A stretch of 64,000 nt of DNA from a virus: IMG/VR virus record IMGVR_UViG_3300037245_002163, positions 37,301-101,300 of that record, one strand, 5' to 3'. Every line of letters starts with the position of its first letter. The stretch's first letter is position 1. The notes beneath the pieces were generated by a model. That model saw only the letters and a list, made by a program, of their open reading frames with translations. It was not told the origin of the DNA and searched no databases. Shown piece by piece: positions 20,542 through 38,989 of this stretch. The translations under genes and the position numbers were made by a program.

Positions 20542-23500
20542 GTGGCCTTTCGCAAAGCAGAACGCTCGCGTTGGCACACCAACGCTTCGTCGGGCTTCCC
20601 GACGATGGCCCCCACGAACAAGATTCGTGCGCGCCTTGCTGCGGGCAAGGGGGGACTTTTAGACCCCCAACTTGTCGCGAACCGCATCTTTCGGCAGAAC
20701 ATGACCACGGAGGATGCTCCGCTGCCCCGGCATATCGTCACCCTAGAAGACGTGACCGCCGGCTTGGGGCTCGACTCCGCCGATGAGCAAGCGGTCCAGC
20801 GGCTCATCGTTGATACCAACGCGCACTTCGACCAGACCCAGCAAACGCAACGCATCGCGCTCGCTCGCGAACGCTTTGTGACCACGCTGCGGGCCATGCC
20901 GTATATCAGTTCCGACATTCGCATGGAGCTAACCAAGCGCGTGATCGCGTACTGGCGCCGAACCGTGCAAACCGACTACGGCAAGGTGCCCACGATCCGG
21001 TCGATCGCGGTCAAGAGCGAGCCCACGCTAGTGATCGGCGCGGAATTGCGCAAAGCAGGGGCCTACGTCGGGCCTAGGGGCGGCAAATGGGCCGATGCGA
21101 AGCACACTATACCTTGGAAAGACCCCGTTTTAGAGCGCAAACGGAGCCTGTTGACGCAAGTCGAGGGCGGTCTCACGGCTGCCACCCGCTCAGCGAGCCG
21201 ATCGCTCGACTCACGGGACGATGATGCCATGCGCGCGGCCGGTCACGACGTGCGCATGGTCCGTGAACGCTTGGCGCGGGTCGCTGGGGAGCATGAGATC
21301 CACGCCAAGAGCCCCGGCACGCTCGGAAAGCAGTACCGGACGCTCGACAAGCGGCTCAAAGGGCTTGAAGCGGAGCTGCGGGGCACGCCATCGAAGGAAA
21401 TGGAAGCCGCGGCAACGAAGACGATCCGTTCGGAGCTGACGGCCGACTCACGGGACGAGCAATACCGCACGCAAGACACTGATTTCATTCGCGGCGATGG
21501 GTCCGTGGACGAAGCGGCGCTCTTCCAAGAGGCCGGCATGGCACTTCGGGGCCTTCGGTTGCTCCCAGAGCGCGCGAACCTTACGTGGCTCCGCAAGCTC
21601 GTCAAAAAAGAAGCCGCGTTGCATGAGCGCAAGGTTACCAAGCCGCTCCACCGGCAGCCCAAAAAGAAAAGCTCTGCAAAGCGCGGCTCCGTAGAATGGC
21701 TACTCGCGCAATCGCCTGTAAGCCCCGATCAAGCCAAAGCGCAGCTTGCTAAGTTCGCGCAAGGACAAGAGGCCGATGCGTGGGTCACGCAAAACGGCTT
21801 TCATGTTCGCGTAGGGAGTAAAACCAGTCGTTCGGAAGCGAGCTTTGAACGCGCTATCGGGCAACTCCAAAGTCGCTTGCGCAAGGCCGACAAGATCCCA
21901 GGCGGTCTCGCCGACAAAAAGAAGCCTTCCGACTTCGATTCTAAGAAGCTCGCCGCGGGCGTCAAAGTTGAGATGGAACACACGAGCGATCGTGCCATCG
22001 CGACTGAGATCGCCATGGATCACTTGACCGAAGACCTGGACTACTACGAAAAGCTCGCGACCATCGAGAAGGCGGAGCAGTTCGGGCTCGACTTCACGGG
22101 CGACACGACTCCCAAAGAGGGGCCGCCGGCCGGCTACGCGGCGATTCCCAGCGGCAAGCACGGGGGATACCGCAAACGCGTCGGCGGGAAGTGGCAGTAT
22201 TGGTATCCCGATGGCGCCAAGCCGAAGAGCAAGGGGCGCAAAAAGAAGCGTGCGAAGCGTGAGAACGTGTGGGGACCGTTGTCGCATGAGGCGGTCAATC
22301 AGTGGCGCAAAGACTTCCGCCAAGCCAGCAAGATCCAGAAGCAGATCATGGATGAGGCCGAAACGATCTTCCGGCCGCAGTGGGATGCGTACAACGCGGT
22401 TGAACCATCGAAGCGCGGCTTCTTTGAAGCCGAAGTGCCCGAAGAGTTTGCGGAGCGTTTCTACGAAGCCAAGACCGTCGTGGAAAACATAGGGATGCAG
22501 TTGCGCGGGTGGGCGGCGAGCCACGTGCTTGGGCTAGAGGGCAGAGCCCTACTGACGAAGCCGGAGGATATTCCTGAGATCGGCCGGCGCGACATAGCTA
22601 CCAAGCTGAAAGACTTGCACTTTTCAGGGGGCTTCCCCGAAGCGATGAGCCACAAAGAGAGCGTGACGTACGCGCCCGGTATCGAGATGGGGGAGTACGC
22701 CGCGACAAGTTGGAAGCAGACTCAGCGGCGCGTGCGGGGCTTGCTGAATGCGGTCGACACGTTCATTTCAGATACCCACGCGGGGCAGACAAGTCGCACC
22801 CCGGTCGGGACGTTCAATAAGCAGGGCATTCAGTTCGCCGTACACGGGGAAGGCTTCGAAGGCACGGCCGCGGGGGATGCGGAGATCGCGGGCGTGGTCG
22901 AGACGGCACTCCGGGTCAAAACGAAGCTCGACAAGATGGGGCTCGGCAAGACCATGGACGGGCTGCGCGTGCACGTGCACAACGAAACGCGGCGCTCCGC
23001 CGAAGGGCATGAGCACCAAGGGCGCGAAAACTTCACGACGGCCGGCTATTACAACGTGCAGGACGACCATGTGCGGCTGTTCAACAGCGGGCACACGCAA
23101 CGCGTGGTCACGCATGAGCTAGGGCACCGCGTGTACTACCAGCTCATGGGCAGCAAGGCGCGTGCGGAATGGGCCAACTTCTACGAAAGCCGGCGTGAGA
23201 AGATCACGAATGACGACGTAGAAGAGCTGGCCGACTTGCTCGAAGAAAACTCCGTAGGGCGCCCCAGAGTCAACGTACTCCAGAACCTCAAAGAGCTTGA
23301 AAAGCGGGGCACGCCCGAAGCGAAGCGTCAGAAGTTCCTACTCCAACAGCTAAAGCTCGGCAGCGACAAGCTCGATAAGTGGGGGAACGTGCCGCACTAC
23401 GGGCAGACCGCGGAGCAAATGGGGGAGTCGTTTCGGCAAGCGGTCAAGGCCGGGACCGTCAACGCATCGATCCCCGATGAGTTCGTGACGCAGTATGCGG

Positions 23501-26328
23501 AGACCGACAACGGCGAGTTGTTCGCCGAAGCCTTTGACCACTACGTGCGCAAGGGGCCAAGCTCGTTGAAACCCCGCGTCCGTGATCAGCTTGAACGCGC
23601 GCTGCGGTCGACGGGTATGAAGCTCCAGAAGTCAGAGGATAATGAGCCCATCCTTGTGACCACGCTGAGCAAAGCGGAGCAAGCCGCGCGCGGGGGCAAG
23701 TACATCAAGCGAGTGCCGTACTACGTGAACGGCAAGCGCAAGTTTCGCTACTACTACCGGGAGAGCGCAGCGGCCCGTGACGTGACCGTGGGCGAGACCG
23801 TGAAGCTCGGCAAGCGTGTCGCCGAAGTGCTCGGGATCGACAAAGACGGGAAGATCACGATCCGTGAGGGCAAGCGCAAGCGCACCGTGACCGCCGACCA
23901 GTGGTCGAAGCTCATGGCCAAGCACTACGGGGATCGGTACTTCGAATGGGCGGAGAAGCGGGCTTCGCAGACCGTGAACGCCGTGCTCCGCCACGTGCCC
24001 CGTGAGATGCTGGCTGACTTGAAGGGCTCCGATGCGGAGCGCATGGCGCAGCTCGAAAAGCGGGTGCCCGAAGTCTACGCCAAGCTCCGCGCGAGCTTTC
24101 AGCGTTCCGGGGTGAGCCCGTTCGAAGCGAAGCGCGTGCTTGGCACCGTCCTAGAGCGCAAGGGCTGGGAGCCCGAAGCTCGCGCGGCGGTCATTGGGAA
24201 CGTCATAGAGCACCGGAACATGGCCTACCGCCAGACCATTCAGGGGGCGGAGAACCTAGCCGGCGGCGGCAAGGTCAAGGCGGGTCACGTCCAGGCGATG
24301 GCCGATATCCTCGCTCCGCCCGACAAGTCGCTCAAAGCCGAAGTTGACGACTTGGCAAGTAAGGCTGAAACGGAGCTGGCGGCGCTCAGCGCGGCACTGG
24401 CCAAAGCGCGGGACGGCAGCCCCGAAGATGCGGCAAAAGCCCTAGAGGAAGCTCTCAATAGCCCCGCGATGGCGCGGCTCGCGCTCGTCGCTCAGGCGAT
24501 GCCAGGGCTCAAAGACAAGGCCATCGAGCCGACCCGCGATGCGCTGGCCCAAGTGCAAGCGGTCATTCCGCGCTCTCAGCCGACGCGTGAGGGCGCTTCG
24601 GCCGTGGTGTACGTAGCGGGTGAGAACGGCGCTCCGCGGGCTCTCAAAGCCCGCTACAAGCTCGTAGAAGCCTCTGAGGCCATCGCGTCGCACGACCCCA
24701 ACTCGTTCAAGCAACGGGAGGGGTATCCCGAAGGGGTGCAAGAGCGCGCCTACCATCGGGATCGGGACGAGCAAGCCAAGGTCATGCGGAATGCGAACAA
24801 GCTAAATCCCGCGTTCCTGGTCAATACGAACCCCGATGCGGTCAACGGGCCGCCCATTCTGGACCAGAACGGCGTGGTGCTGGGGGGCAACTCGCGCACC
24901 ATGAGCATGCAACTCGCCTACGAGAAGCATCCCGATCGGGCCAAAGAGCTTCGGGCCTACATGGCAGCCCACGCCCATGAGACCGGGTTCACCCCCGAAG
25001 ACGTGAAGGCGCTGAAAAACCCCGTGCTTGTGCGCGTGGTCGAGACCACGGGCACGGATGACCAGAAGCTCCTAGTGCGGCAAATGAACGAGTCGTTCAC
25101 TCAGGGGATGGACCCGCGAACGATGCAGGTGGCCATGGGCCGCAAGCTGGACGATGCAGCGGTCAAGCAACTTGGCGATTCGATGGAAGCCGACGAGACC
25201 TTGAACGCGTTTCTTGATTCGAAGCGGGCCGAAGGGTTCATCAACGCGCTCACCCGCGTTGGCGTGATCGACCAGCGCAACTCGAATCAGTACATGGTCA
25301 AGGGCACCAAACGGTTGAACGAAGACGGCAAGCAACTGGTCGAGCGCGTGCTTGTCGGGCGCACGGTCGGCGACGCTGACTTGCTCAGCAATACGACCGC
25401 CAAGATCGTCGGGAATATCGCCCGCAGCGTGCCGTTCATGGCGCAAGCCAAGGCGCACGGTGCCACGTATGACCTAGGGGATGATCTCAAAGTCGCACTC
25501 GATCAGTTCAACGATCTGAGCTTCCGGGCTCGGCAAGGGCACCGGGCAGCTCTGAATGCCGACATGAGCGACAAAGAGTTCAAGGGGCTCTTCGCGCAGA
25601 CTGAGATGTTCGGGGAGCGAAACCCCATTCTCGACAACCCCCGCGCCATGACCTTGCTTGAAGTGCTCATCCGCAAGAATGGCCCCCAAAAGATGAGCGC
25701 CGTCTTCCGTGACTACGCTGCGCTCGCTGCCCAGCACCCCGAAGATCAAGACAGCATGTTCGGCGACAAGCCATCGCCCGAAGCGTTGCTAGAGCGGGCC
25801 ATGAAGGGCGACGCTAAGAAGAGCATGGAGCCGACCCTGATCGTCAAGCGCGAGCCCACACTGATCGTCAAGGCCCGTTCGATCCTCACACCGAACATTC
25901 AGGTGGGCGAAGCACGGGGCGCGCCGCGCTTCGACACGCCCCCGATGCCCGACTACCAAGGCATCTATTATCCCCCGGAAGACGAAGACGCCCACAAGCG
26001 CGAGCGGGACCATGCGCAGAACCGCCGCCAAGCCGATGCGGAACGCGCGCGGGGCAAATGGGGCTTCCATGGCAAGGTGCTCAGCGCCAAGCCGGCCATC
26101 AAATGGGAGCTGGACCGGGAGGAAAGCGAGCCCGCGTTCAAGCAACCGAAAGACCGGGAAACAGGCAAGCCGCTCCGCGTGAGCCCCAAGCTGAATGCAC
26201 GCACCCGCGAAGAGAAGGGGAAGCCGACCTACGCGGATGCAGACGTAGAGCTAGAGGGTGAGGGCAAGCCGAAATCAAAGCGGAAAAAGAAGAAGAAGCG
26301 AGTTAGGCTCACAGCGAGGAAACGGTAA
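20542..26328 (+). CDS. giant polyvalent protein A (DUF5661-like + zincin + DdrB-like ParB domain)
   Basis: GVKVEMEHT..IAMDHL.E..DYY; AGYY..HELGH..ELFAEAF; YKLVEA..SHD..Q.R.Y..L.P..NGPPI..V.GGNSR. Confidence 0.8.
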   Translation: MAFRKAERSRWHTNASSGFPTMAPTNKIRARLAAGKGGLLDPQLVANRIFRQNMTTEDAPLPRHIVTLEDVTAGLGLDSADEQAVQRLIVDTNAHFDQTQQTQRIALARERFVTTLRAMPYISSDIRMELTKRVIAYWRRTVQTDYGKVPTIRSIAVKSEPTLVIGAELRKAGAYVGPRGGKWADAKHTIPWKDPVLERKRSLLTQVEGGLTAATRSASRSLDSRDDDAMRAAGHDVRMVRERLARVAGEHEIHAKSPGTLGKQYRTLDKRLKGLEAELRGTPSKEMEAAATKTIRSELTADSRDEQYRTQDTDFIRGDGSVDEAALFQEAGMALRGLRLLPERANLTWLRKLVKKEAALHERKVTKPLHRQPKKKSSAKRGSVEWLLAQSPVSPDQAKAQLAKFAQGQEADAWVTQNGFHVRVGSKTSRSEASFERAIGQLQSRLRKADKIPGGLADKKKPSDFDSKKLAAGVKVEMEHTSDRAIATEIAMDHLTEDLDYYEKLATIEKAEQFGLDFTGDTTPKEGPPAGYAAIPSGKHGGYRKRVGGKWQYWYPDGAKPKSKGRKKKRAKRENVWGPLSHEAVNQWRKDFRQASKIQKQIMDEAETIFRPQWDAYNAVEPSKRGFFEAEVPEEFAERFYEAKTVVENIGMQLRGWAASHVLGLEGRALLTKPEDIPEIGRRDIATKLKDLHFSGGFPEAMSHKESVTYAPGIEMGEYAATSWKQTQRRVRGLLNAVDTFISDTHAGQTSRTPVGTFNKQGIQFAVHGEGFEGTAAGDAEIAGVVETALRVKTKLDKMGLGKTMDGLRVHVHNETRRSAEGHEHQGRENFTTAGYYNVQDDHVRLFNSGHTQRVVTHELGHRVYYQLMGSKARAEWANFYESRREKITNDDVEELADLLEENSVGRPRVNVLQNLKELEKRGTPEAKRQKFLLQQLKLGSDKLDKWGNVPHYGQTAEQMGESFRQAVKAGTVNASIPDEFVTQYAETDNGELFAEAFDHYVRKGPSSLKPRVRDQLERALRSTGMKLQKSEDNEPILVTTLSKAEQAARGGKYIKRVPYYVNGKRKFRYYYRESAAARDVTVGETVKLGKRVAEVLGIDKDGKITIREGKRKRTVTADQWSKLMAKHYGDRYFEWAEKRASQTVNAVLRHVPREMLADLKGSDAERMAQLEKRVPEVYAKLRASFQRSGVSPFEAKRVLGTVLERKGWEPEARAAVIGNVIEHRNMAYRQTIQGAENLAGGGKVKAGHVQAMADILAPPDKSLKAEVDDLASKAETELAALSAALAKARDGSPEDAAKALEEALNSPAMARLALVAQAMPGLKDKAIEPTRDALAQVQAVIPRSQPTREGASAVVYVAGENGAPRALKARYKLVEASEAIASHDPNSFKQREGYPEGVQERAYHRDRDEQAKVMRNANKLNPAFLVNTNPDAVNGPPILDQNGVVLGGNSRTMSMQLAYEKHPDRAKELRAYMAAHAHETGFTPEDVKALKNPVLVRVVETTGTDDQKLLVRQMNESFTQGMDPRTMQVAMGRKLDDAAVKQLGDSMEADETLNAFLDSKRAEGFINALTRVGVIDQRNSNQYMVKGTKRLNEDGKQLVERVLVGRTVGDADLLSNTTAKIVGNIARSVPFMAQAKAHGATYDLGDDLKVALDQFNDLSFRARQGHRAALNADMSDKEFKGLFAQTEMFGERNPILDNPRAMTLLEVLIRKNGPQKMSAVFRDYAALAAQHPEDQDSMFGDKPSPEALLERAMKGDAKKSMEPTLIVKREPTLIVKARSILTPNIQVGEARGAPRFDTPPMPDYQGIYYPPEDEDAHKRERDHAQNRRQADAERARGKWGFHGKVLSAKPAIKWELDREESEPAFKQPKDRETGKPLRVSPKLNARTREEKGKPTYADADVELEGEGKPKSKRKKKKKRVRLTARKR

Positions 26329-29300
26329 ATGGCGGGGAGACTACCGATCGGGGACGCGGCTTCGTTGCGTTCCATCATGGAGCGCGGGCTCCAAAAGGGT
26401 AAGGGCGGATGGCAGTCCGTGCCGAAGGGCAAGCACGGCGGGCAGCGCCGTCGCAAGGGCAATTCCTACGAGTACCGCTACCCCGATGGGCAAGGCGGAT
26501 GGCGCAGTAGCCCCGGCCGACGCCAAGCCACTTCCGGCGCCCCGAAGCAGGGCCTAAAGACCCGGCTCGCAAGGCACAAAGAGCAGAAGATCGCCGACAT
26601 GCGCCGCCGTGACAAAGAGGCGGCTGGGAAGCGTTTGGACGCGTCTATCGAAGAGAGCCGTAGGCAGAACGCCGCCCGCGGCCCGGTCACCCGCCGGTCG
26701 CTCAACTTCGACGAGTACCAACAGCGCGCCTACCGGATGACAAATCAGGGGCTTGCCGGCGCGCTCGATGACATTCGCGCCACGCTCCCAAGCGCCGATT
26801 CGATGGACCGTGAGATGAACACGGACAACGGCGGCTACTACCGTGACCAGGCGAGCGTGCTCGTCCAAGAGCAAAAGAAGCGCACTGAGAACCCAAAGCG
26901 CGAGACAGAGAGCGCCATTCTACGCACGCGGGATGAGATCGCCGTGCGCTCATGGCGCATCGAAGAGAACGCGGGCAACACTTCGCAGGCCGCGAAGACC
27001 CAGACGGGTATCGATCAGCGCGAGCTATCTAAGCTGTACGAACGCACCGCGAGCCTTGAAGCGAAGATCGCGCCGGCCAAGCAAGACCCGACCAAAAAGC
27101 TCCCGCCGCACACGAAAAACAGGTGGGATTCAGCGGACGGCAAACGCAATATCGTCGGGATGCACGCGAGCGGGAAGTACCTAGTGGCCACCGCGGGCCG
27201 TACGACGCTAGAGCTGATCGACCCCAAAGACCTCATGGACGAGCAGAACCTAGACATGCGGCAGCTAGAGAGCCGTCGCAAGATGGGCCGCGCAGTCCAG
27301 GCGGAAAAGGACCGTGCCGCCGCAGAGAAGCGGGTCGCCGAAGACACGCAAGGCTTCACGGACAAGATGACTCCCGCGCGCAAGGCCAAGGTCAACGCGA
27401 CGCTCAATAAGCAACGGCACATCAGCGGCTACGTCACGACGCTCAAAACGTACATGCAAGCCGCCGTCGCAGACGGTGCCAAGGTCACGACGCACAGATC
27501 CTTCGGGCGCATCCTGACGACCGCCACCGGGTCGTTCTTTACGCAAAAAGACCTGACGAAGACCGGGCTCGACTTCGCGGAGCATCTTAGCGCGCTACCG
27601 CCGCGCAAAGGCCAGTACGGCGAAGCGTGGCCCATGGCTAAGCCATCGCGCGCAGTCACGGCCGTGAACGTGGCTGACGCACTGAAAACAGCGTCCCACA
27701 ATCTCGTCTACCTCACGGAAAAACTGACGGGCTCCAAAGACGAGAAGTCAGTCAGTGACATTCGCTCCATGGTAGAGGCGATGCAGGACCAGGGGCGCGC
27801 GATCATCTTTCGGGATCGCGATGGCGACGAGATCGTAGATATCCCAGGCCGGCACGGGACGAGCAAGAGCCTCTACAGCGTGCCCCTACGTAGGTTCGTA
27901 GTCGGCGACCTAGAGAAAGCTGGGGGCTGGGGGAACATTCCCGCCGGTAGGCGCGGGGGCCAGCGTAAGCGCGTGGGCATGAAGTGGGTCTACCGCTATC
28001 CCGATGGCAAGGGTGGTTGGCAGAGCGGCGCGGCGCGCGAGCGAAGCGCCACCAAAAAGAAGGCCGCGGCTAAGAAGCAAGCGGCGCAGACCACGCTCGA
28101 CTTCGGCGCAGCCGGCGAGCCCGACGAGCCTACAGCCACGCCCGATATCGTGCATCTTGCGGCGGCGTTCATAAAGCCGGGCGACGTGCTGCACCCCTTC
28201 GGCGATGAACAGTACCGGATCATCGCGTCGGGTAAGAAGGGCTTCAAGATCCACCTTGCGACCATGAACGTCGCAACGGGCGAATCGCTCGCGCTCACAG
28301 TGAGCGCCACGGACAAGATGTGGGTCCAGCAAGTGGGCGAGCAACGCAAGACGGATGTGGAGACGCAGCCGCCTAAGAAGGCCCCCGCTTCCACGCCACG
28401 CGGCAAGGCGTCGCACACGACTGAATCGATGATCGAAGAGGGCGAGTACGTCAACGATCGGGAAAGCAACGTACGCCAGATCGGCGAAGACGTGTTCGGC
28501 AGTGCGCGCCACCGGGCGATGAATTGGAAGAGCCTACGTGAAGCTCTTGATTCAGAAGACGCGCCCGCCATGTTCACGCGCAAGTTCCTGCTACGCGAGA
28601 AGCCCATCGGGTTCATTGGGCGCGCTCAGGCGGCGGAAGGCGCAGACGGGGTGCTCAACCAAGCGCACTACTACTTCGCGATGAACAAGTTCCCAGCGAA
28701 GCCGCCCAAGTTTGGCTCTTCGCCGCAACGTGGTTGGTTTTTCAGGGACGTGAAGCGTGAAGGCCGGGGCACCTACGACTATCACAATAGCCCGGAGTAC
28801 AAGGCGAAAGCGGTAGAGCTAGAAGAGGCACGGAACAACCCTGAGAAGTGGGCGGAAGTCTCAAAGGAATGGCAGCGCGCCGGGCTTGAAGGCTACTACA
28901 ACGCGTACGCGACGGTTCAAGGGATCATCGAGGGGCACTCCGCGTCGGGCAACGCTCCCGAAGGCCCTCCGCAGATCCGGTATCCCAGCTACACAAAGCC
29001 GAACGCGGATTCGCCAAGGCTCGAAGACAAGCTCCGGGCGGCGTTGTGGCAAGCCAAGGCCGATGGCAAGCACCCCGTGGAGATCGAGAGCTTGCGCAAG
29101 ACGTTCAACGGCCAAGTGAGCGGCAAGACACGACCATCGAGGCAAGTCGACGATATCCGATCCCGCGCCACTAGAAAGCACGGGCCAGACGCCGATGCGA
29201 TCAATAGCGCGACCATCGAAGCGGCGATGCTGGTCATGGAAGGCAAGAGCATCAACGCGGCCTTCGGGGAAAAGAAGAGCGGCAAGGGCTACGCGGTCAA

Positions 29301-30195
29301 CCTTCGGGACATGTACGACACGGACAAGATGGAACGGAAGGGGCCGGAGAGCCGCTACGAGCACATCGAACAAGGCCGTAAGCTCATGAGCAAGGGCGGC
29401 CCGTTCAAGATGCGCGGCCTACAGCTCGGCAAGAGCGTCACGGACCAAGAGCGCGTCCACCATCTAAAGAGTCTGGTCGATAGCTTCGATGACATGGCGG
29501 AGTTGACCGGCTTGCCGGTGGGCATGATGGGCTACAACGGCAAGCTCGCGATGGCCGTGGGCGCACGTGGGGTCGCCGGGGCGCTCGCGCACTACGAGCC
29601 CACCGCGAACGCGATCAACCTGACGCGGCTAAACGGTGCGGGCTCGCTCGCGCACGAATGGGGTCACTTCTTTGATTCGAACGCGGGCGCAGCCGACCTA
29701 AATGGCGGTCGCAACCGGGAGAACAACCTCACGGGAAGCCGTGTTCCACGCGGTGCCAGCCAAGGCTTGCCGTCGCCTACGCGCGAAGCCGTGACGGCGC
29801 TCCGTGATAGCGAGGCGTTCCAAAAGTTCGATGCCCGGATCACGACGGCCATGGACAAGAATCCGCTCTACTCTCCGCCGGAGAAGCAGTATTGGCGGAG
29901 CCACGTCGAAATGTTCGCCCGGAGTTTCGAGCGGCACTTACAGCGTAAGATGGCCAAGCAGGGGCGCAGCAATACGTACCTTGTGGCGCTGCGGAAGGCG
30001 GCTAGCTCGCCTGACGGGCTTTGGCCGACCGATGAGGAAGCCGATGCGATGGCTCCGCTTTTCGAGAACATCTTTGCGAAGTTCAAAGAGTCGGGACTAC
30101 TTGAAAAGATGATGCGCCAGCTCGAAGGGGATACTCTTCGCAAAGCGGCGTTCACCGTGCCCAAAAAGCGGTTCGTTGTGGGGGATATTCGATGA
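26329..30195 (+). CDS. giant polyvalent protein B with a C-terminal LPD1-like zincin domain
   Basis: LAMAVGARG..A.AHYEP..INLT..GAGSLAHEWGH ... YW...EMFARSFE. Confidence 0.8.
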   Translation: MAGRLPIGDAASLRSIMERGLQKGKGGWQSVPKGKHGGQRRRKGNSYEYRYPDGQGGWRSSPGRRQATSGAPKQGLKTRLARHKEQKIADMRRRDKEAAGKRLDASIEESRRQNAARGPVTRRSLNFDEYQQRAYRMTNQGLAGALDDIRATLPSADSMDREMNTDNGGYYRDQASVLVQEQKKRTENPKRETESAILRTRDEIAVRSWRIEENAGNTSQAAKTQTGIDQRELSKLYERTASLEAKIAPAKQDPTKKLPPHTKNRWDSADGKRNIVGMHASGKYLVATAGRTTLELIDPKDLMDEQNLDMRQLESRRKMGRAVQAEKDRAAAEKRVAEDTQGFTDKMTPARKAKVNATLNKQRHISGYVTTLKTYMQAAVADGAKVTTHRSFGRILTTATGSFFTQKDLTKTGLDFAEHLSALPPRKGQYGEAWPMAKPSRAVTAVNVADALKTASHNLVYLTEKLTGSKDEKSVSDIRSMVEAMQDQGRAIIFRDRDGDEIVDIPGRHGTSKSLYSVPLRRFVVGDLEKAGGWGNIPAGRRGGQRKRVGMKWVYRYPDGKGGWQSGAARERSATKKKAAAKKQAAQTTLDFGAAGEPDEPTATPDIVHLAAAFIKPGDVLHPFGDEQYRIIASGKKGFKIHLATMNVATGESLALTVSATDKMWVQQVGEQRKTDVETQPPKKAPASTPRGKASHTTESMIEEGEYVNDRESNVRQIGEDVFGSARHRAMNWKSLREALDSEDAPAMFTRKFLLREKPIGFIGRAQAAEGADGVLNQAHYYFAMNKFPAKPPKFGSSPQRGWFFRDVKREGRGTYDYHNSPEYKAKAVELEEARNNPEKWAEVSKEWQRAGLEGYYNAYATVQGIIEGHSASGNAPEGPPQIRYPSYTKPNADSPRLEDKLRAALWQAKADGKHPVEIESLRKTFNGQVSGKTRPSRQVDDIRSRATRKHGPDADAINSATIEAAMLVMEGKSINAAFGEKKSGKGYAVNLRDMYDTDKMERKGPESRYEHIEQGRKLMSKGGPFKMRGLQLGKSVTDQERVHHLKSLVDSFDDMAELTGLPVGMMGYNGKLAMAVGARGVAGALAHYEPTANAINLTRLNGAGSLAHEWGHFFDSNAGAADLNGGRNRENNLTGSRVPRGASQGLPSPTREAVTALRDSEAFQKFDARITTAMDKNPLYSPPEKQYWRSHVEMFARSFERHLQRKMAKQGRSNTYLVALRKAASSPDGLWPTDEEADAMAPLFENIFAKFKESGLLEKMMRQLEGDTLRKAAFTVPKKRFVVGDIR

Positions 30196-33100
30196 GAGAT
30201 GCAATCGATGGCCTAGTGAAGCTCGTCAAGGGCGCAGCGGCGGGCAGTGGCGGCGGCTGGGGCAATATCCCCAAGGGCACTAGGGGTGGGCAGCGCAAGC
30301 GCGTCGGCGGCAAGTATCAATACCGCTACCCTGACGGCAAGGGCGGTTGGCAGAGTAGCCCTAGCAAGGGCGGCAAGGGCGGCAGGCGCAAAGCCAAAGC
30401 CAAAGCCAAGAGCAAGGCCGGCAAGTGGACTTCCCCGGAGCAAGCTCGCGAGCGTGGCGCAGCGGCGCACGCGGAAGGCATCAGCGCACCCGCCCAAGAC
30501 AAAGCGTACATGGATAGCGTGCCTTGGGGCGCCGTGGGCGACTCCATACCCTATGCCGACGCGTGGTCGAAGGGCTGGCACGCGGCCAACACCAAAGCGA
30601 ACGATGCGAGCCCCGAAGGCCGGGCACTCGCCGCCGACATGGCGCGCACAAAGTTGGAACAGCACGCGTGGTATGCAGAGCATTCCGACTTTCGAAGCAC
30701 GGTCAAAGGCGTTCGGCACATCATGGTGCTCGATGCGGCAACTGGCGGAACCATGCTCACCCCGCTCACTGAGGCCACGGATTTCGAGCTAGCCAAGCTC
30801 CTCGCTAAGAACCAGAACGACGCCGCGGATGCTATCGATCCGCTGAATCCTTCCGAGGGCGAGAAGGCGCGCATCATAGACGCCGCCGACAAGCTATGGG
30901 ATAGCGAGCGCGCCTATGACGGCTCCGTACAGTGGCCCGTGAAGTACGCGGCCTACCGGGAGCTTGCGCGGGGCATTGAAGTCGCCGACAAGCGGTTCGG
31001 CCCCAAGCACCACGTCGTGCCCCCCTCGCTTCGGGACCGGGTAGCGGAGATGCGCAACGTGTTCGCAGAGCGTGAATCAGAGGCGCGTAAGCGATACGCG
31101 AACGATCACAAGCGGATGGCGCGCAATGGGTCCGTGCATATCGACTCTTTCCGAGGCGCGAATATCATTAGCCCCAGCAAGGCCATGATCGACCTGGCTG
31201 ATCAGCTTGGGAAGCAGGGGGCGTATGGCAACGTCCACGAAAAGCTCACGGCGATGGCTGAGCAGTACACCAACTACTTAGATTCGTGGAGCGCCGATCA
31301 GCATAAGTCAGCATCCAATGTGCTTTCGCACTACGCCCATGAGCACCGCGCCGACGACGCCGTGCGCCAAGCGGCGATCGTGCTCGCGCGGGCTCACGAT
31401 GCAAAGGGCAACGCGAAAGCGAAGAGCCAGAAGCCCGGCCCGGCGGCTACGAACAAAGAAATTGCCGCGGCGATGCGCTTGAACAAGGTCGAGGCGCTTT
31501 CGACGGGCGAGACAAAGGCCATGCGCGCGCAGCTCAAACGGAACGCAAAGAACGGCGTAGCCGGCGGCAACGCGGGTCGTGTCAAAGCGGGCCAGCGCGT
31601 CGCATTGGATGGCAAGGGCTGGAAAGTCGCAGACTTCGATGCGGACGCTGCGGCGCCCGAAGGCTCGACCCTTGTGCTCTTAGCCGACGATGGCCGGAGC
31701 ATGATGAGCGGCGTGCGGCTCGATAACCCGGCGTTGCGCTACGGCAAGCATCAACCGGGCGATCCCAAAGACGATCTTTCTGGCGTTTTCGATGAGGGCA
31801 AGGGCAAGGGCCGTTGGCCGAAGGGCACCAAGGTCAAGAGCCCCGAAGAGCGCGGCCGAGACCGTGCGAAGGGCCGTCGCTCCGATGCGGACCTTGCGGA
31901 GAACAAGAGGCGCAACGTCAGAACGCGCGCGGAGAGCGGCTACCGCAGTTCGACCGATGCGGAGCTGGCAGAGACCGTGCGCCGGAACAAAGAGAAGAGC
32001 GGCGGTATGAAGGGCGCAGATCCGCTCGAAGTGTGGCGGAAAAAGAAGGCCGAAATGGACGCTAAGAAGAGTGCCGACGCGATCGAAGGGCTCGAAGTGT
32101 TGCTCAAAGGTGTGCAGCGCGGCGGCAAATACTACAAGCGCGTCCCCAAGAGCGGCGGCAAAAAGGGCTACGACTACTACTACACCAAAGAGAAGTACGA
32201 CGCGCGCCCCGGAGCCACGAAAGACACCGATCCGAACGCGCGCGCCAAGACGCAAAAGATCGTCGACCTCTTTCACGACCACCACTTGAACCAGTGGAAC
32301 GCGAACGCCGCGGAAAAGCTCAAAGCGTTCACGGACGTACCCAAAGAGGATATCGAAACGGCGGTAAGCTGGGCCAAAGAGCACGGCGACGCGAAGATCC
32401 AGCGGGCGATGGAAAGCGCCAAGAATGCGCACTTCGATGCGATCCATTTGAAGCCGCATGCTGACAAGCGCCGCGAAGAGGCCAAGGCCAAGCACGCCGC
32501 GATCGACATTTCCCCGGACACCTACAACTCAAAGAAGTTCCGGGTGAAGGGCATGAGCGGAGAAGCCTCATTCAGCCAAGCTAAGGACAAGAGCGCGGGC
32601 GCGCGCATCGTCAACTTGCTCTTCCCTGAGCACACCGCGTCGGATCACTACGGCGCGTCGCACAAGCACCGCGATGCCATGCGTGACAACATGACCGAAC
32701 ACCGCAAGCTCATCGCGGACGCGCAGAACAAAGCCTACGGTAAGAAGCTGGGTATCGGGGAAGGCCCGAACATTTCAGGCGGCACCGACCCGAAGTTCGG
32801 GAAGGAAACCAACGACAAGATCCGGGTCGCGGTGAAGGCTTTGCAGTTCCACCAGGACGCCGCTGACGCCCATGAGCACGCCGCACGGTACACCCGGAAA
32901 GCAAAGAAGAGCGGCGACGCTATCGATGGGCTCGAATCGCTGAGCAAGGGCGGCGGCTGGCACAGCGCACCGGGCTCCAAGAAAGGCCGGCAGCGCACGC
33001 GTGGTGCCGGGGGTAAGTGGATCTACCGGGATGCTCCGGGTGCGGGCGGTGGCAAGGTCAAGCGCGGCAGCGATGCCCGCAGTGTCTTGGGTGGCGGTTG

Positions 33101-34436
33101 GGCGGTCGGCGTTATCGAGGGGCTTCCCAAGGATCTCAAAGACTTCACCGAGGCCGTCGAAGCCGGCAACGATGAGATCAGCATCGATGGCATCGGTAGG
33201 GCGATCAAAAACAAGCTCGATATCGCGGACGTTCGATCTTCGCAGATTGTCGCGCACTCGATGCGCGAAGACATACCGGACGGGCTTCTTTCGATGCGGA
33301 CTGCGCCGACGCAAATGAAGCAGCGGATTGCGAGCGAGAAGAGCAAGATGGCGGAACGAGACCGCCTACGGACGCAGGTGCGGAAGTTCGCACTAGCCGC
33401 GCTCGACAAGATCGACCGCTCGAAAGAAGTCAGCTTCCAAAAAGAGTCAGACAAGGGCTACGGCGAGAAGCGCGACCAAGATCGGCGGGCGCGTTTCAGG
33501 GATAACCGGGAAGACCATAGCAAGAGCGGCGACGCTATCGAGGGCTTGGAAGGGCTCAGCAAAGCCCGGTACTACGATATGGACTACGGGTCGGGTAAGA
33601 TGACCGCCAAGAAAGAGAGCGCATCCATGGGGAAGAGCAAGGGCGATATCATCCAAGAGCTGATTGCCAAGATGAAGTCTGGGGATATTACCAAAGAGTT
33701 GATCGGCAAAATGAAGGCTGCGGGCCTTGCTGACGACGTGGTTCAACAGCTCATCGGCCGATGCAATACGCGCAAGAGCCACTTCGAACCCTCACTCAAA
33801 AAGGGGCTCTATGCTTTCGAGCTGGGTGGATCGGAGAGCAAGAGCCGCAAGCTCCCTGACAATCTCTTGCCTCAGTACCTTGGGGCCTTTGTGGAGCAAG
33901 CCTACGAGCATGAGAAGCAAGAGTGTGAGCACCAAAAGGTCAAGCCCGTGAGCTACGACGATCAGATCAACTTCTTTGCCATGCGCGTCATGAATGAGCT
34001 GGTCGTTTACATGCGGAACAACCCCGATCTCATGGCAGCCGGCAAGGATGCGACGGCCGTCAGCATCGCCGCGATCCTCCGTAACTCCGGGCTCGTGCAG
34101 CCCGACGTGAGCGGCTTTACGAACAACGAAGGCAACGGATACATGGGCGAAGTGGCCCACTACTCAAAGAAGGCCCCTTGGATTCAGGAAGATCCCACAG
34201 CTCGCCCGATGGCGCAGCTCGCCGATCGCCATGAGCAAGGGTCGTTCACGGACGACACCGCAGACCCGGCCATTGCGCTCCGCAAGGCTCAGGTCGAAGA
34301 GACCCGGCGCGCATTTACCGCCCCAGAACCGAAGTTCATGGTAAAGGGGGATGGCGACTGCCCGGTACACGGCTACCACGATCTCACCAAGATGCAGACT
34401 CTTCTGATCCCGCCCGGACATTGCACGTGTAACTAA
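30192..34436 (+). CDS. giant modular basic protein C, putative internal head protein
   Basis: 1414 aa; four DAI[D/E]GLxxLxK[G/A] linkers; stop overlaps the portal start. Confidence 0.75.
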   Translation: MRDAIDGLVKLVKGAAAGSGGGWGNIPKGTRGGQRKRVGGKYQYRYPDGKGGWQSSPSKGGKGGRRKAKAKAKSKAGKWTSPEQARERGAAAHAEGISAPAQDKAYMDSVPWGAVGDSIPYADAWSKGWHAANTKANDASPEGRALAADMARTKLEQHAWYAEHSDFRSTVKGVRHIMVLDAATGGTMLTPLTEATDFELAKLLAKNQNDAADAIDPLNPSEGEKARIIDAADKLWDSERAYDGSVQWPVKYAAYRELARGIEVADKRFGPKHHVVPPSLRDRVAEMRNVFAERESEARKRYANDHKRMARNGSVHIDSFRGANIISPSKAMIDLADQLGKQGAYGNVHEKLTAMAEQYTNYLDSWSADQHKSASNVLSHYAHEHRADDAVRQAAIVLARAHDAKGNAKAKSQKPGPAATNKEIAAAMRLNKVEALSTGETKAMRAQLKRNAKNGVAGGNAGRVKAGQRVALDGKGWKVADFDADAAAPEGSTLVLLADDGRSMMSGVRLDNPALRYGKHQPGDPKDDLSGVFDEGKGKGRWPKGTKVKSPEERGRDRAKGRRSDADLAENKRRNVRTRAESGYRSSTDAELAETVRRNKEKSGGMKGADPLEVWRKKKAEMDAKKSADAIEGLEVLLKGVQRGGKYYKRVPKSGGKKGYDYYYTKEKYDARPGATKDTDPNARAKTQKIVDLFHDHHLNQWNANAAEKLKAFTDVPKEDIETAVSWAKEHGDAKIQRAMESAKNAHFDAIHLKPHADKRREEAKAKHAAIDISPDTYNSKKFRVKGMSGEASFSQAKDKSAGARIVNLLFPEHTASDHYGASHKHRDAMRDNMTEHRKLIADAQNKAYGKKLGIGEGPNISGGTDPKFGKETNDKIRVAVKALQFHQDAADAHEHAARYTRKAKKSGDAIDGLESLSKGGGWHSAPGSKKGRQRTRGAGGKWIYRDAPGAGGGKVKRGSDARSVLGGGWAVGVIEGLPKDLKDFTEAVEAGNDEISIDGIGRAIKNKLDIADVRSSQIVAHSMREDIPDGLLSMRTAPTQMKQRIASEKSKMAERDRLRTQVRKFALAALDKIDRSKEVSFQKESDKGYGEKRDQDRRARFRDNREDHSKSGDAIEGLEGLSKARYYDMDYGSGKMTAKKESASMGKSKGDIIQELIAKMKSGDITKELIGKMKAAGLADDVVQQLIGRCNTRKSHFEPSLKKGLYAFELGGSESKSRKLPDNLLPQYLGAFVEQAYEHEKQECEHQKVKPVSYDDQINFFAMRVMNELVVYMRNNPDLMAAGKDATAVSIAAILRNSGLVQPDVSGFTNNEGNGYMGEVAHYSKKAPWIQEDPTARPMAQLADRHEQGSFTDDTADPAIALRKAQVEETRRAFTAPEPKFMVKGDGDCPVHGYHDLTKMQTLLIPPGHCTCN

Positions 34437-36232
34437 TGGGGCTCCTAGACGATATCCGAACGGCGGGGACGGGTGCTCTTGACGGCGCGATGCAGTCATT
34501 GCGCAAGGCCGACGATCTAGGCGACGACGTGCCGTTCGATGAGATGCAAGACGCGCTCATGAAGGGCGGGCTCGCTGAGCCCACGGAAGAGAAGCCCCGT
34601 GGTCTCTTTCATGATCCCTACAGCGTCATGGATTGGGGCGGCTGGCGTCAGCGTCCCAGCATTCTCACGTACGATACGCTCCGCCAAATGAGCATATCGA
34701 ACACCGTGATCGCGGCCATCATTCAGACCCGCGTGAATCAGCTCAGCCAGTTCGCCGTGCCGCAGCAAGGCGACTACGACCGGGGCTACCGCATTATCCT
34801 TCGGGACCGTCGCGACAAAACCAAGGTCATGACGAAGGCTCAGCAAACCAAGGCGACTGAGCTGGAGCGCATGATCGAAACCACCGGGTACATGCTCCCC
34901 GATGAGAAGTCGTACGACCGCGATAGCTTTCGCGCGTTCCTAAAGAAGATCGTGCGGGATTGCCTCACCTACGATCAAATCTGTATCGAGAAGATCCGCG
35001 ACCGCAAAGGCCGGATCAGTCGCTTCATCGCACTGCCCACGGAGACCATTCGTCCCGCTGTTGCGGACGTGGAGCACATGGACCCCGAAGAGCGCCGCAA
35101 CCGCGTTGCGTATGTTCAGGTGTACGAAGATTCAGTTATAGCCGAATTCGGACCCGATGACCTTGCGTGGAGTGTCATGAACCCACGTTCGGATCTGCGC
35201 GTGAATGGCTTCGGGTTCGCTCCCATCGAACAGCTCATTCGCATGATCACAAGCTGGCTCTATGGCTTCGAATACAATACCAAGTTCTTTTCGCAGGGCT
35301 CCGCAATCAAGGGCGTGATCAACGTCAAGGGCGCCATTCCCGATCGCCAGCTCCGCGCGTTCCGACGCATGTGGTACTCGATGGTCACGGGCGTCCAGAA
35401 CAGTTGGAAGACGCCCATCTTGAACGCCGAAGACTTGCAATGGGTCTCGCTCCATTCGACGAACCGCGAAATGGAGTTTGGCCAGTGGCTCGACTTCCTA
35501 ACCAAGAGCATTTGTTCGGTCTACGGGATCGACCCCCTGGAGATCGGGTTCATTTACGGCTCCGGTGGTGGCGGCTCGTCGCTCTTCGAATCCCGGCCGA
35601 ACCAAGCCGAAGTGCAAGAGTCGAAGGACAAGGGGCTCCGCCCGCTCATCGAGCACATCGAAGACACGATCAACCAGCACATCGTATGGGAGCTGGAGCC
35701 CGACTTTGAATTCGAGTTCACCGGCTTCGATGCCAAGGCCGAAGACAAAGAGCGTGAGGCTCGGATGCTTGAAGTTACCAAGGTCAAGACGGTCGACGAG
35801 ATCCGGGCCGAGATGGATCAAGATCCGCTGCCCGATGGGCTTGGGGAGATCATTCTCGACCCGACGTTCCTGCAATGGGTCCAGGGCAAGCAAGGCATGG
35901 ACGAGGAAGGCGGCGAGGGCGGCTTCGGCGAGGAAGGCGACGGCGACGAAGACGGCGACTCCGGCGACCTTCCCGACTGGTTCGGCGGTGGCAAAGACAA
36001 AGACAAGGGCGACGACAAGGAAAAGCAGGAAGGCCCCCCAGGCGCCAAGAGCGGCGACAAGGGCTCGGCTCCGGGGAAAGACCTACCTTCGGGGGTCAAG
36101 GGCGGTAAGGCGTCCCAGAAGGAAGCCCTAGCGGCCTCTGAGTCGGCCATCCGTACCGTCGAAGTGTTGCGGAAGAGCCAAAGGGTGCAGAATGATCGCC
36201 AGATCATCGATGTAGAGATCGTGGGGGAATGA
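34436..36232 (+). CDS. portal protein
   Basis: AIIQTRVNQ, RDCLTYDQ..EK, NPRSD..G.G..P.E, FFSQG, ICSVYGIDP.EIG, SKDKGLRPL; SPO1/Twort-type. Confidence 0.92.
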   Translation: MGLLDDIRTAGTGALDGAMQSLRKADDLGDDVPFDEMQDALMKGGLAEPTEEKPRGLFHDPYSVMDWGGWRQRPSILTYDTLRQMSISNTVIAAIIQTRVNQLSQFAVPQQGDYDRGYRIILRDRRDKTKVMTKAQQTKATELERMIETTGYMLPDEKSYDRDSFRAFLKKIVRDCLTYDQICIEKIRDRKGRISRFIALPTETIRPAVADVEHMDPEERRNRVAYVQVYEDSVIAEFGPDDLAWSVMNPRSDLRVNGFGFAPIEQLIRMITSWLYGFEYNTKFFSQGSAIKGVINVKGAIPDRQLRAFRRMWYSMVTGVQNSWKTPILNAEDLQWVSLHSTNREMEFGQWLDFLTKSICSVYGIDPLEIGFIYGSGGGGSSLFESRPNQAEVQESKDKGLRPLIEHIEDTINQHIVWELEPDFEFEFTGFDAKAEDKEREARMLEVTKVKTVDEIRAEMDQDPLPDGLGEIILDPTFLQWVQGKQGMDEEGGEGGFGEEGDGDEDGDSGDLPDWFGGGKDKDKGDDKEKQEGPPGAKSGDKGSAPGKDLPSGVKGGKASQKEALAASESAIRTVEVLRKSQRVQNDRQIIDVEIVGE

Positions 36233-36984
36233 TGGGGGTACGAACCAGCACAGTGCTATCGCTTGAAGTGGGTCTCAATAACTCGCTTGACGATTGCCTT
36301 TTCGAGCGGAGCTTCACGGAGCTATTAGACACGCTCGACCATGGGGTTTCCCAAGTGCTCACGGTCGAAGCGGGCACTTCGAATCTTGCGGTCGACATGG
36401 GCGACGTGGCGCAAGCCCGGCTCATCTACATCGAAAGCAACCTGGAGATCGAAGTCACCTTCGGGGGCGCGCTCGCCACGGGCGCGATTGTCGACGGCTC
36501 CGGCGGCACCTACCCGACTGGCTTTGCCGGCGGCGAGACCCTGAATCTGGTCGTGGACAACGGCGGGCTGGTCTCATGTAGCTTCGATGCGGCCGACCAG
36601 TCGCTCGCTCAGGTGATCAACCGCATCAACTCATGCCTAGCGTTGAACGGCCAAGCGCCCGTCGCGTCGGATAGCGGGGGTGAGCTACGGCTCGCGAGCA
36701 CCACGACCGGCACCGGGTCGGAGATCGACATTCAGAGCGGCACCGGGCTGGCCATCTTGGGCCATAGCATCGGCGTCACCAATGGCATCAACAGCACTCC
36801 GGGCGCGAGCGCATTGCAGCTCCAGCGGCCCGCAGACGCGTCGGGCGCGGACGCCGCCCAAGACGTGCTCGCCTACGTGCTCGCCACGATCAACACAAGT
36901 TCGGTATCGATCAGCAATACATCGCTCACGGCCAATGCGCGCGTGAGGCTCATGATCGCCGGGGATCTGGTCGTAGCGCCGTAA
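36229..36984 (+). CDS. putative virion structural protein
   Basis: 251 aa, beta-rich; INRIN..L..LRLASTTTGTGSEI insert. Confidence 0.6.
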   Translation: MMGVRTSTVLSLEVGLNNSLDDCLFERSFTELLDTLDHGVSQVLTVEAGTSNLAVDMGDVAQARLIYIESNLEIEVTFGGALATGAIVDGSGGTYPTGFAGGETLNLVVDNGGLVSCSFDAADQSLAQVINRINSCLALNGQAPVASDSGGELRLASTTTGTGSEIDIQSGTGLAILGHSIGVTNGINSTPGASALQLQRPADASGADAAQDVLAYVLATINTSSVSISNTSLTANARVRLMIAGDLVVAP

Positions 36985-38759: not shown

Positions 38760-38989
38760 CTAGCCAAGGGATAATGAACGGCGACAAGCACTTGCACTGC
38801 CCGCACTGCGATCGCCCCATCTTCCGCAAGAGTAGTTCTGGCGCACGTTACAAAGCGAAAACGTCGATCGTCGTGTTGCACAAAAGCGGTGACGTGGAGA
38901 TCAACTGCGGCGCATGCAAGCGCGCGGTTATCCTTACGCGAGCGAAGATCGAGCTGCGAAAGGCTGTTTTCACCGTCCCCAAGAGTTGA
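38756..38989 (+). CDS. small Zn-ribbon (Com-like) protein
   Basis: LHCPHC ... EINCGACK; ATGA-coupled. Confidence 0.65.
   Translation: MTSQGIMNGDKHLHCPHCDRPIFRKSSSGARYKAKTSIVVLHKSGDVEINCGACKRAVILTRAKIELRKAVFTVPKS

What the first reader, a model, noticed from the sequence alone, without database searches (positions are those of the whole stretch)
20542..34436. Three giant head-region proteins look like protease-processed polyproteins built from repeated cassettes
Seen: each protein has its own short repeated linker, usually opened by KS and closed by xxK[A/G], placed at domain boundaries. A: VKSEPTLVIGAELRKA, QKSEDNEPILVTTLSKA, KKSMEPTLIVKREPTLIVKA. B: SKSLYSVPLRRFVVGDLEKA and C-terminal LRKAAFTVPKKRFVVGDIR. 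C: MRDAIDGLVKLVKG, KKSADAIEGLEVLLKG (~32061), KKSGDAIDGLESLSKG (~32901), SKSGDAIEGLEGLSKA (~33518). The capsid has ELRK|ALTAG. Established: A511/K-type capsid proteins mature by cleavage at a Lys-Ser-type bond in this position, and T4 internal proteins use cleavable capsid-targeting peptides. Inference: about 14 kb encodes a modular cargo-loading system yielding ten or more separate ejected effectors.
Basis: partly seen in the sequence, partly recalled or inferred. Interest (0 to 1): 0.85.

Follow-up and report, generated by a model that had tools for sequence, protein, structure and literature searches.

The report
Phage head-cargo polyproteins with Lys-cut linkers
Three giant genes next to the portal gene of an uncultured 101-kb phage string swappable protein modules together with short peptides ending in the same Leu-x-Lys signal at which this type of capsid protein is cut, so the head protease probably cuts them into about a dozen packaged proteins, though no cut has been measured.

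Summary
In detail: every quoted linker is present at the stated place. A (20542-26328), B (26329-30195) and C (30192-34436) are phage-type polyvalent proteins (ddrB-ParB, DUF5661, LPD1, HExxH zincins), translationally coupled to the portal gene. Their junctions end in hydrophobic-x-Lys followed by Ala/Gly/Ser. In the capsid protein this motif aligns with the mapped maturation cut of Listeria phage A511. L-x-K-[AGS] occurs 34 times against 9.3 expected in the head module, and 20 against 17.5 in the rest of the genome. In three relatives whose portals are about 90% identical, cassette content differs and every homology breakpoint falls in a junction. Each junction is followed by a small basic/aromatic beta-meander tag. 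A profile of that tag finds 300 protein clusters, many of them giant polyvalent proteins, and 60% of tags have the Lys motif just upstream (11% expected). Cleavage, packaging and ejection remain inferred. The published concepts exist separately: polyvalent proteins, and prohead-protease processing of internal head proteins. Their combination, the gene-specific linkers and the tag were not found in the papers searched. This scan has noted analogous polyprotein systems in at least 75 other genomes. Verdict: new variant of a known kind, interest 0.6.

The parts
20542..26328 (+). Giant protein A, 1928 aa. Predicted pieces: 1-171, 172-448, 449-510 (DUF5661), 511-1044 (HELGH zincin), 1045-1777 (ddrB-ParB), 1778-1928.
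   Evidence: breakpoints against relatives at 168-174, 444-448, 574-578 and 1771
21010..21054 (+). A-type linker 1 (ends LRK|A), followed by a T2 tag at 21055-21126
21874..22071 (+). DUF5661 mini-cassette bracketed by sites LRK|A (residue 448) and IEK|A (residue 510)
   Evidence: a stand-alone DUF5661 gene in L012 starts at the equivalent point
22120..22221 (+). T1 tag of cassette A3
23629..23766 (+). A-type linker 2 (23629-23673) and T3 tag (23686-23766)
25816..25872 (+). Doubled A-type linker 3 in front of the conserved C-terminal piece of A
26329..30195 (+). Giant protein B, 1288 aa. Propeptide 1-23, pieces 24-530 and 531-1272 (HEWGH zincin plus LPD1), C-terminal peptide 1273-1288.
26329..26508 (+). 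N-terminal propeptide of B ending LQK|G, then a T1 tag
27856..28026 (+). B-type linker (27856-27918, ends LEK|A) and T1 tag (27922-28026)
30133..30192 (+). Site LRK|A and the B-type peptide as the C-terminus of B
30192..34436 (+). Giant protein C, 1414 aa. Propeptide 1-13, pieces 14-639, 640-919, 920-1124 and 1125-1414 (conserved in all relatives).
30192..30359 (+). C-type N-terminal propeptide (13 aa, ends LVK|G) and T1 tag
32064..32186 (+). C-type linker 1 and T3 tag
32904..33041 (+). C-type linker 2 and T1-like tag
33519..33563 (+). C-type linker 3, the border of the conserved C-terminal cassette
34436..36232 (+). Portal protein. Its start overlaps the stop of C. Candidate sites LRK|A (residue 24) and LRK|S (residue 580).
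36984..38759 (+). 591-aa head-block protein with a C-terminal HEIGH zincin. Junction DLRK|A at residue 410. In relative G002 a T2-tagged cassette is inserted exactly there.
   Evidence: a MuF domain was not detected
38756..38989 (+). 77-aa Zn-ribbon ORF ending in LRK|A plus a B-type peptide
39108..39848 (+). Prohead serine protease. Its C-terminal part (from LAK|S, residue 165) copies the capsid protein's post-cut N-terminus.
39832..40767 (+). Scaffold-like acidic protein, six L.K[AGS] sites against 0.35 expected
40798..42207 (+). SPO1/A511-type major capsid protein, predicted cut K31|A32

Best explanation
A, B and C are phage polyvalent proteins made with the head genes and loaded into the procapsid. 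Each is a chain of swappable cassettes. A junction consists of an 8-20 residue linker specific to that gene, ending in hydrophobic-x-Lys, then Ala/Gly/Ser, then a roughly 25-40 residue basic/aromatic beta-meander tag, then a basic stretch, then the cargo domain. The phage's HK97/A511-type prohead serine protease (39108-39848) cuts after the Lys. The same rule trims the capsid protein, and probably the portal, scaffold, p591, the Zn-ribbon protein and the protease's own tail. Cutting would free 11-12 pieces, most of which start with a tag. Most linkers also open with K|S, so they may be excised as small peptides. Shown here: the anatomy, the motif statistics, the alignment to a mapped cut, and cassette exchange at junctions. 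Inferred: cleavage, packaging, ejection, and the role of the tag.
For: 1) The genes overlap or abut each other and the portal gene. 2) Signature polyvalent domains are present. A polyvalent protein with an LPD1 domain is found in phi24B virions by proteomics. 3) RefSeq marks the mature A511 capsid protein as starting after 23 residues, at L-K|S, and that Lys aligns with K31 of the window capsid protein. SPO1 gp6.1 has LNK|A in the same column. 4) The protease tail mimics the capsid N-terminus from the cut onward, both here and in A511. 5) L.K[AGS] is 34 against 9.3 expected in the head module and 20 against 17.5 elsewhere. 6) Every homology breakpoint against three relatives lies in a junction. 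The p591 junction carries an extra tagged cassette in G002. 7) DNA copies of linkers and tags are only 62-83% identical, so the peptide is what is conserved. 8) B and C start with the linker itself as a 23- or 13-residue leader, like a propeptide. 9) In the wider set of tag-bearing proteins, 145 of 242 tags have the Lys motif within 14 residues upstream, against 27 expected. 66 tags sit at N-termini, either bare or behind short leaders ending in K-[AGS]. 10) A 251-aa head-block protein has no lysine at all.
Against: There is no proteomic or biochemical datum for this phage or any close relative. On the P' side, capsid-type sites have a hydrophobic P2' residue while the cassette junctions mostly have Gly/Ala. 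The giant proteins are 8-10% Lys, so specificity must rest on more than the three-residue motif, and that was not modelled. The Lys motif could be a conserved part of the tag module with another role. The protease reaches only 17.6 bits on Pfam S78, below the 21-bit cut-off. Three HExxH domains in the head block are alternative processing enzymes.
Confidence: 0.6

Rival explanations
1. The junctions are module borders and recombination joints that are not cut. The linker and tag would then be a structural or binding adaptor, for example for docking to scaffold, portal or DNA, and the giant proteins would stay intact in the head, as proposed for phi24B gp47 and known for N4 vRNAP.
For: Breakpoints at junctions fit recombination alone. 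The Lys motif sits at a fixed distance from the tag (peak 5-7 residues), so it could belong to the module. Intact giant polyvalent proteins are reported in virions.
Against: This does not explain why the same motif marks the mapped capsid cut, the protease tail, the portal ends and the scaffold but not tail or early proteins. It also does not explain why the linkers recur as N-terminal leaders and as C-terminal peptides after LRK|A.
Confidence: 0.2
2. Processing occurs but is carried out by the embedded zincin (MPTase-like) domains of A, B or p591, as Iyer et al. proposed for polyvalent proteins, and not by the prohead protease.
For: Three HExxH domains lie in the head block. The published model is in PMC5512222.
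Against: The motif is shared with the capsid propeptide cut, which in A511/HK97-type phages is attributed to the prohead serine protease. Relatives keep the junction grammar while exchanging the zincin-bearing cassettes.
Confidence: 0.1
3. A, B and C are not virion proteins. They would be late cytoplasmic multi-enzyme proteins that only happen to lie next to the head genes.
For: There are no virion data. C has no recognised domain.
Against: They are translationally coupled to the portal gene, share head-specific motifs, carry ddrB-ParB and LPD1 (families tied to phage late genes and virions), and keep the same position upstream of the portal in every relative examined.
Confidence: 0.05

Closest known systems
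Polyvalent proteins of phages and conjugative elements (Iyer, Burroughs, Anand, de Souza, Aravind 2017, PMC5512222)
   Same: Giant multi-domain proteins next to portal and packaging genes, with ddrB-ParB, LPD1 and metallopeptidase domains and mosaic domain content. They are proposed to be packaged and injected.
   Different: That paper proposes self-processing by the embedded metallopeptidase. My term searches of it found no mention of linkers, domain boundaries, a prohead-protease cutting rule or the tag.
T4 prohead protease gp21 with capsid-targeting sequences of internal proteins IPI-III and Alt
   Same: Short leader peptides bring cargo into the prohead and are clipped by the head protease at a three-residue rule that the capsid protein shares.
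   Different: T4 cuts after Glu (L/I-x-E). It handles one N-terminal leader per separate small gene, not chains of cassettes. The leader is removed and no retained tag is known (own knowledge; reviews PMC9958956 and PMC3012670 were listed but not read).
Giant-phage head maturation (SPN3US gp245, phiKZ gp175)
   Same: Many internal or ejection proteins are cut by the prohead protease at a short motif, the protease removes its own C-terminal propeptide, and propeptides are cut several times (PMC10052503).
   Different: Those cuts follow Glu. All 13 substrate cuts remove N-terminal propeptides and keep one mature product. No multi-product polyproteins are reported.
A511/SPO1/HK97-type capsid maturation
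   Same: Homologous capsid, portal and protease proteins (about 30-38% identity), an N-terminal propeptide cut after Lys (A511 mat_peptide), and a protease tail that copies the capsid N-terminus.
   Different: No giant ORFs are annotated upstream of the portal gene in A511. The other cultured Herelleviridae were not checked.
phi24B gp47, a 2811-aa LPD1/LPD5/LPD38 polyvalent protein detected in virions (bioRxiv 10.64898/2026.04.10.717836)
   Same: A giant LPD1-bearing protein that is physically present in phage particles and is proposed to be an ejection protein.
   Different: It is treated as an intact protein, and that phage's capsid protein is not cleaved.

Membership tests
Polyvalent proteins (Iyer et al. 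2017) | Two or more unrelated conflict-type domains in one polypeptide, including signature LPD or ddrB-ParB domains | tested here: met
   A has DUF5661, an HExxH zincin and ddrB-ParB (E 4.5e-19). B has an HExxH zincin and LPD1 (E 4.3e-15).. C has no Pfam match, so for C alone this is inconclusive.
Polyvalent proteins (Iyer et al. 2017) | Phage late-gene context with a portal-terminase packaging system | tested here: met
   A, B and C abut each other and overlap the portal start. The arrangement is the same in all relatives.
HK97/A511-type prohead serine protease (Pfam Peptidase_S78) | Profile match over the curated cut-off | tested here: inconclusive
   Pfam S78 gives 17.6 bits against a 21-bit cut-off. 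PHROG 1028 'head maturation protease' gives E 4.4e-42. The protein aligns with the A511 protease, sharing the GFS-x-EG stretch. There is no PDB sequence match.
HK97/A511-type prohead serine protease | Cuts the capsid propeptide after Lys | not testable with these tools
   Only the alignment of K31 with the annotated A511 cut is available.
SPO1/A511-type major capsid protein | Full-length homology and an N-terminal propeptide with a Lys cut site in the aligned column | tested here: met
   PHROG 752 E 8e-89; SPO1 gp6.1 (9vel) E 1.3e-53; A511 mat_peptide alignment.
T4 capsid-targeting-sequence system | gp21-type protease cutting after Glu at L/I-x-E | tested here: not met
   The junctions end in Lys, and the head-block protease matches HK97/A511-type models, not T4 gp21. 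The system works like T4's but is not a member of it.
MuF / SPP1 gp7 minor head protein (PF04233), for p591 | Phage_Mu_F domain match | tested here: not met
   No match at E <= 10 in p591 and none in the whole genome at E <= 1.

The most novel reading that the evidence does not exclude
The junction grammar is an address code used across a large uncultured phage clade. In this reading, the gene-specific linker peptides are excisable procapsid-targeting signals that can sit at the N-terminus, internally or at the C-terminus. The retained N-terminal beta-meander tag (300 clusters, in no library searched) would be a new signal that keeps each freed cargo with the DNA or routes it out through the tail. 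If so, any domain placed behind linker plus tag would be packaged and injected.
Probability: 0.3. Interest if true: 0.75.

Novelty: new variant of a known kind. Interest (0 to 1): 0.6.

Why it matters
Polyvalent proteins are widespread, but how a protein of up to about 3000 residues is loaded, stored and turned into working enzymes is unsettled. The published idea is self-cleavage by an embedded metallopeptidase. Here a simple Lys rule, anchored to a mapped capsid cut, predicts exactly where each chain is cut and by which enzyme, and it makes the question testable with one protease and one substrate fragment. The linker and tag could also serve as portable signals for loading chosen proteins into phage heads. 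The tag profile also gives a handle for finding cargo cassettes that domain libraries miss.

Tried and rejected
1) DNA search of the head block against cultured phages found no match. Only protein-level relatives at 30-38% identity exist, all Herelleviridae-like.
2) Recent duplication as the source of the repeats was rejected, because the DNA copies are only 62-83% identical.
3) The AlphaFold model of the T1 tag (pLDDT 77, a 3-4 strand meander) gave only weak fold matches, the best at Z 3.8, mostly single beta-propeller blades. No function could be read from it.
4) The AlphaFold model of the conserved C-terminal cassette of C was too poor to use (pLDDT 51.6), so no fold search was run.
5) A tblastn of the tag against cultured phages and a tag pattern scan of 185,579 reference genomes found nothing. 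The tag is so far seen only in metagenomic phage contigs.
6) A full-text search for five tag peptides found no paper.
7) The MuF assignment for p591 was not supported.
All of those lay beside a homologous portal gene.
9) NCBIfam added only a sub-threshold CLCA_X match in B.
Full report
OBSERVATION. The window is the last 64 kb of a 101.3-kb IMG/VR virus record. Three abutting plus-strand ORFs encode proteins of 1928 (A), 1288 (B) and 1414 (C) residues. The stop of C overlaps the start of a portal gene. Each gene has its own linker type:
- A uses KSEPTLVIK|A-like peptides, three times, the last one doubled.
- B uses a peptide with the core FTVPxKRFVV, once internally and once as its C-terminus after LRK|A.
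- C uses DAIxGLExLxK|G/A, once as a 13-residue N-terminal leader and three times internally.
Most internal copies open with K|S.

WHAT THE GENES ARE. Pfam finds DUF5661 and ddrB-ParB in A and LPD1 in B. Both also carry HExxH zincin regions. These are the signature domains of the polyvalent proteins of Iyer et al. 2017 (PMC5512222). C has no recognised domain. Downstream lie:
- the portal gene;
- a 251-aa protein with no lysine;
- a 591-aa protein with a C-terminal HExxH domain, in which a MuF domain was sought and not found;
- a 77-aa Zn-ribbon ORF;
- a prohead protease (PHROG 1028, E 4e-42; Pfam S78 below its cut-off);
- an acidic scaffold-like protein;
- an SPO1-type major capsid protein.
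The nearest cultured relatives are Herelleviridae, at 30-38% protein identity.

ANCHORING THE CUT. The RefSeq record of Listeria phage A511 annotates the mature capsid protein as starting 23 residues in, after DALK|SFTTG. In a four-way alignment that Lys falls in the same column as K31 of the window capsid protein. SPO1 gp6.1 (PDB 9vel) has LNK|A at that position. A deposited staphylococcal-phage capsid chain (9row, 439 residues) matches 24 positions further along than the 463-residue chain 5lii. In both A511 and this phage, the protease's C-terminal part repeats the capsid sequence from the cut onward (here VLAK|SLSAG, followed by about 25 similar residues). The rule "hydrophobic, any residue, Lys, then a small residue" is therefore tied to a mapped maturation event in a homologous head.

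STATISTICS.
- With per-protein shuffles as expectation, L.K[AGS] occurs 34 times against 9.3 in the eight head-module proteins (A 5, B 5, C 6, portal 4, p591 3, protease 4, scaffold-like 6, capsid 1).
- It occurs 20 times against 17.5 in the other 97 ORFs, and the tail genes show no excess.
- The three linker peptide types occur nowhere else in the genome except the C-terminus of the Zn-ribbon ORF and a B-type-like copy near the end of C.

CASSETTES. Three related contigs were examined (G001 complete at 107.8 kb, G002, G003; portals 91-97% identical). They carry A, B and C homologues of very different length, for example A of 1928, 1765, 1182 and 974 residues. The blastp segments of A against its homologues end at residues 166-174, 444-448, 574-578 and 1771. 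Those of C against G1 and G2 start at 1111. Each of these ends lies in a linker, a tag or the basic stretch behind a tag, and these zones cover only about a tenth of the proteins. The segment of C against G3 ends at 1046 only because the G3 gene is split there. In G002 the p591 homologue has an extra tagged cassette inserted exactly at its DLRK|A site. The last cassette of C (1125-1414) is conserved in ten protein clusters behind unrelated N-terminal cassettes, always after a C-type linker. Within the window, the DNA copies of linkers and tags are only 62-83% identical, so selection acts on the peptide.

TAGS. Directly after the cut position comes one of three related basic/aromatic modules:
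- T1: GGW..IP.G..GG.RKR.G.KW.YRYPDG
- T2: core GPRGGKWAD
- T3: core GGKY.KR.P, then aromatic residues
All 14 T2 copies in the window and its relatives follow hydrophobic-x-K without a gap. A 42-column T1 profile searched against 1.84 billion representative proteins found 300 with E <= 0.001. Many are giant (up to 3298 residues) with up to six copies. Those scanned include ART-PolyVal + N6-methylase + SNF2, ddrB-ParB and InPase architectures. Of 242 tags in the best 150 proteins, 145 have hydrophobic-x-K-[AGS] within 14 residues upstream. Random positions give a mean of 27 and a maximum of 45 in 200 trials. 66 tags lie at protein N-termini, either bare or behind short leaders ending in K-[AGS]. 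Tag-bearing proteins recoverable from IMG/VR lie immediately upstream of, or next after, a portal gene homologous to this one (phmmer E about 1e-120 to 1e-129 for full-length matches), and they show the same grammar. AlphaFold folds T1 as a small 3-4 strand meander (pLDDT 77) with no informative fold match. The tag matches no Pfam or NCBIfam model in the proteins scanned, and none of five tag peptides appears in the paper library.

MECHANISM. The most likely reading (0.6) has four steps. The chains are made with the head proteins and enter the procapsid. The prohead serine protease cuts after the junction lysines. The short linkers leave as peptides. About 11-12 pieces, most headed by a tag, stay with the DNA. 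The anatomy, the statistics, the aligned cut and the cassette exchange are shown here. Cleavage, loading, ejection and any role of the tag are inferred. The rivals are uncut junction adaptors (0.2), cutting by the embedded zincins as in the published model (0.1), and non-virion proteins (0.05). Three weak points remain. Capsid-type sites have a hydrophobic P2' residue that most cassette junctions lack. The giant proteins are Lys-rich, so extra determinants are needed. The Lys motif could belong to the tag module.

COMPARISON AND NOVELTY. Each ingredient is published on its own:
- polyvalent proteins (PMC5512222);
- leader peptides clipped by T4 gp21;
- wide processing of internal head proteins in SPN3US and phiKZ, where all 13 substrate cuts remove an N-terminal propeptide and none yields a multi-product chain (PMC10052503);
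- a giant LPD1 protein detected in phi24B virions.
In the papers searched I found none of the following: polyvalent chains punctuated by the prohead protease's own cutting rule, gene-specific linkers that also occur as terminal peptides, or the retained tag. This scan has already noted analogous cargo polyproteins in at least 75 genomes, including Mx1-like phages with a Leu-x-Lys rule. The theme therefore recurs in the scan's own notes, though these are unchecked AI notes. I class it as a new variant of a known kind.

The model of the conserved C-terminal cassette was unusable. No experimental data exist for this clade.

Noticed in passing
window 36229-36984 (+): The 251-aa protein between the portal gene and p591 contains no lysine at all, against a genome mean of 5.0% Lys. 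Its homologues in four relatives have 0, 0, 0 and 1 Lys. This would fit a head-interior protein that must survive a Lys-specific protease. It has no family match.
   Followed up: partly
window 22072-22095 (A, just after IEK|A) and about 28110-28130 (B); many tag-bearing proteins P0004-P0153: A motif of the form Q-[LM]-[GS]-[LMF]-F (QLGLF, QMGLF, QLSLF), which looks like the bacterial sliding-clamp binding motif, lies within 45 residues upstream of 33 of 224 T1 tags (3.6 expected). It often sits directly after the K|A site. The window has weaker versions (QFGLDF, QTTLDF).
   Followed up: partly
window 39591-39700 (+) versus 40879-40990 (+): The protease C-terminal region repeats about 30 residues of the capsid protein's post-cut N-terminus (64% identity over 36 residues). 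The same arrangement is seen in Listeria phage A511.
   Followed up: yes
window 38756-38989 (+): A 77-aa Zn-ribbon ORF whose start overlaps the p591 stop. It ends in LRK|A plus a short peptide nearly identical to the C-terminus of B, which suggests a shared terminal targeting peptide.
   Followed up: partly
window 34350-34433 (+), end of C: The extreme C-terminus of C has invariant Cys/His residues (C-x2-H ... C-x-C) in all ten homologue clusters, probably a small metal-binding knuckle right before the portal gene.
   Followed up: no
window 26260-26325 (end of A) and 39690-39725 (protease): Runs of 5-7 lysines lie close to predicted cut sites: at the C-terminus of A, and in the protease just before LYK|A.
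   Followed up: no
L003 6068-10001 / L015 (relative G003): The C homologue of G003 is split into 1105-aa and 277-aa frames, through a frameshift or an assembly error, within the stretch just ahead of the conserved last cassette.
   Followed up: no
L012 6574-8079: A distant relative (portal 35% identical, GC 50%) has a 501-aa head-block ORF with a long run of QDPMA-like repeats, a stand-alone DUF5661 gene, and a 1001-aa protein that starts with a C-type-like linker and a T3 tag.
   Followed up: partly
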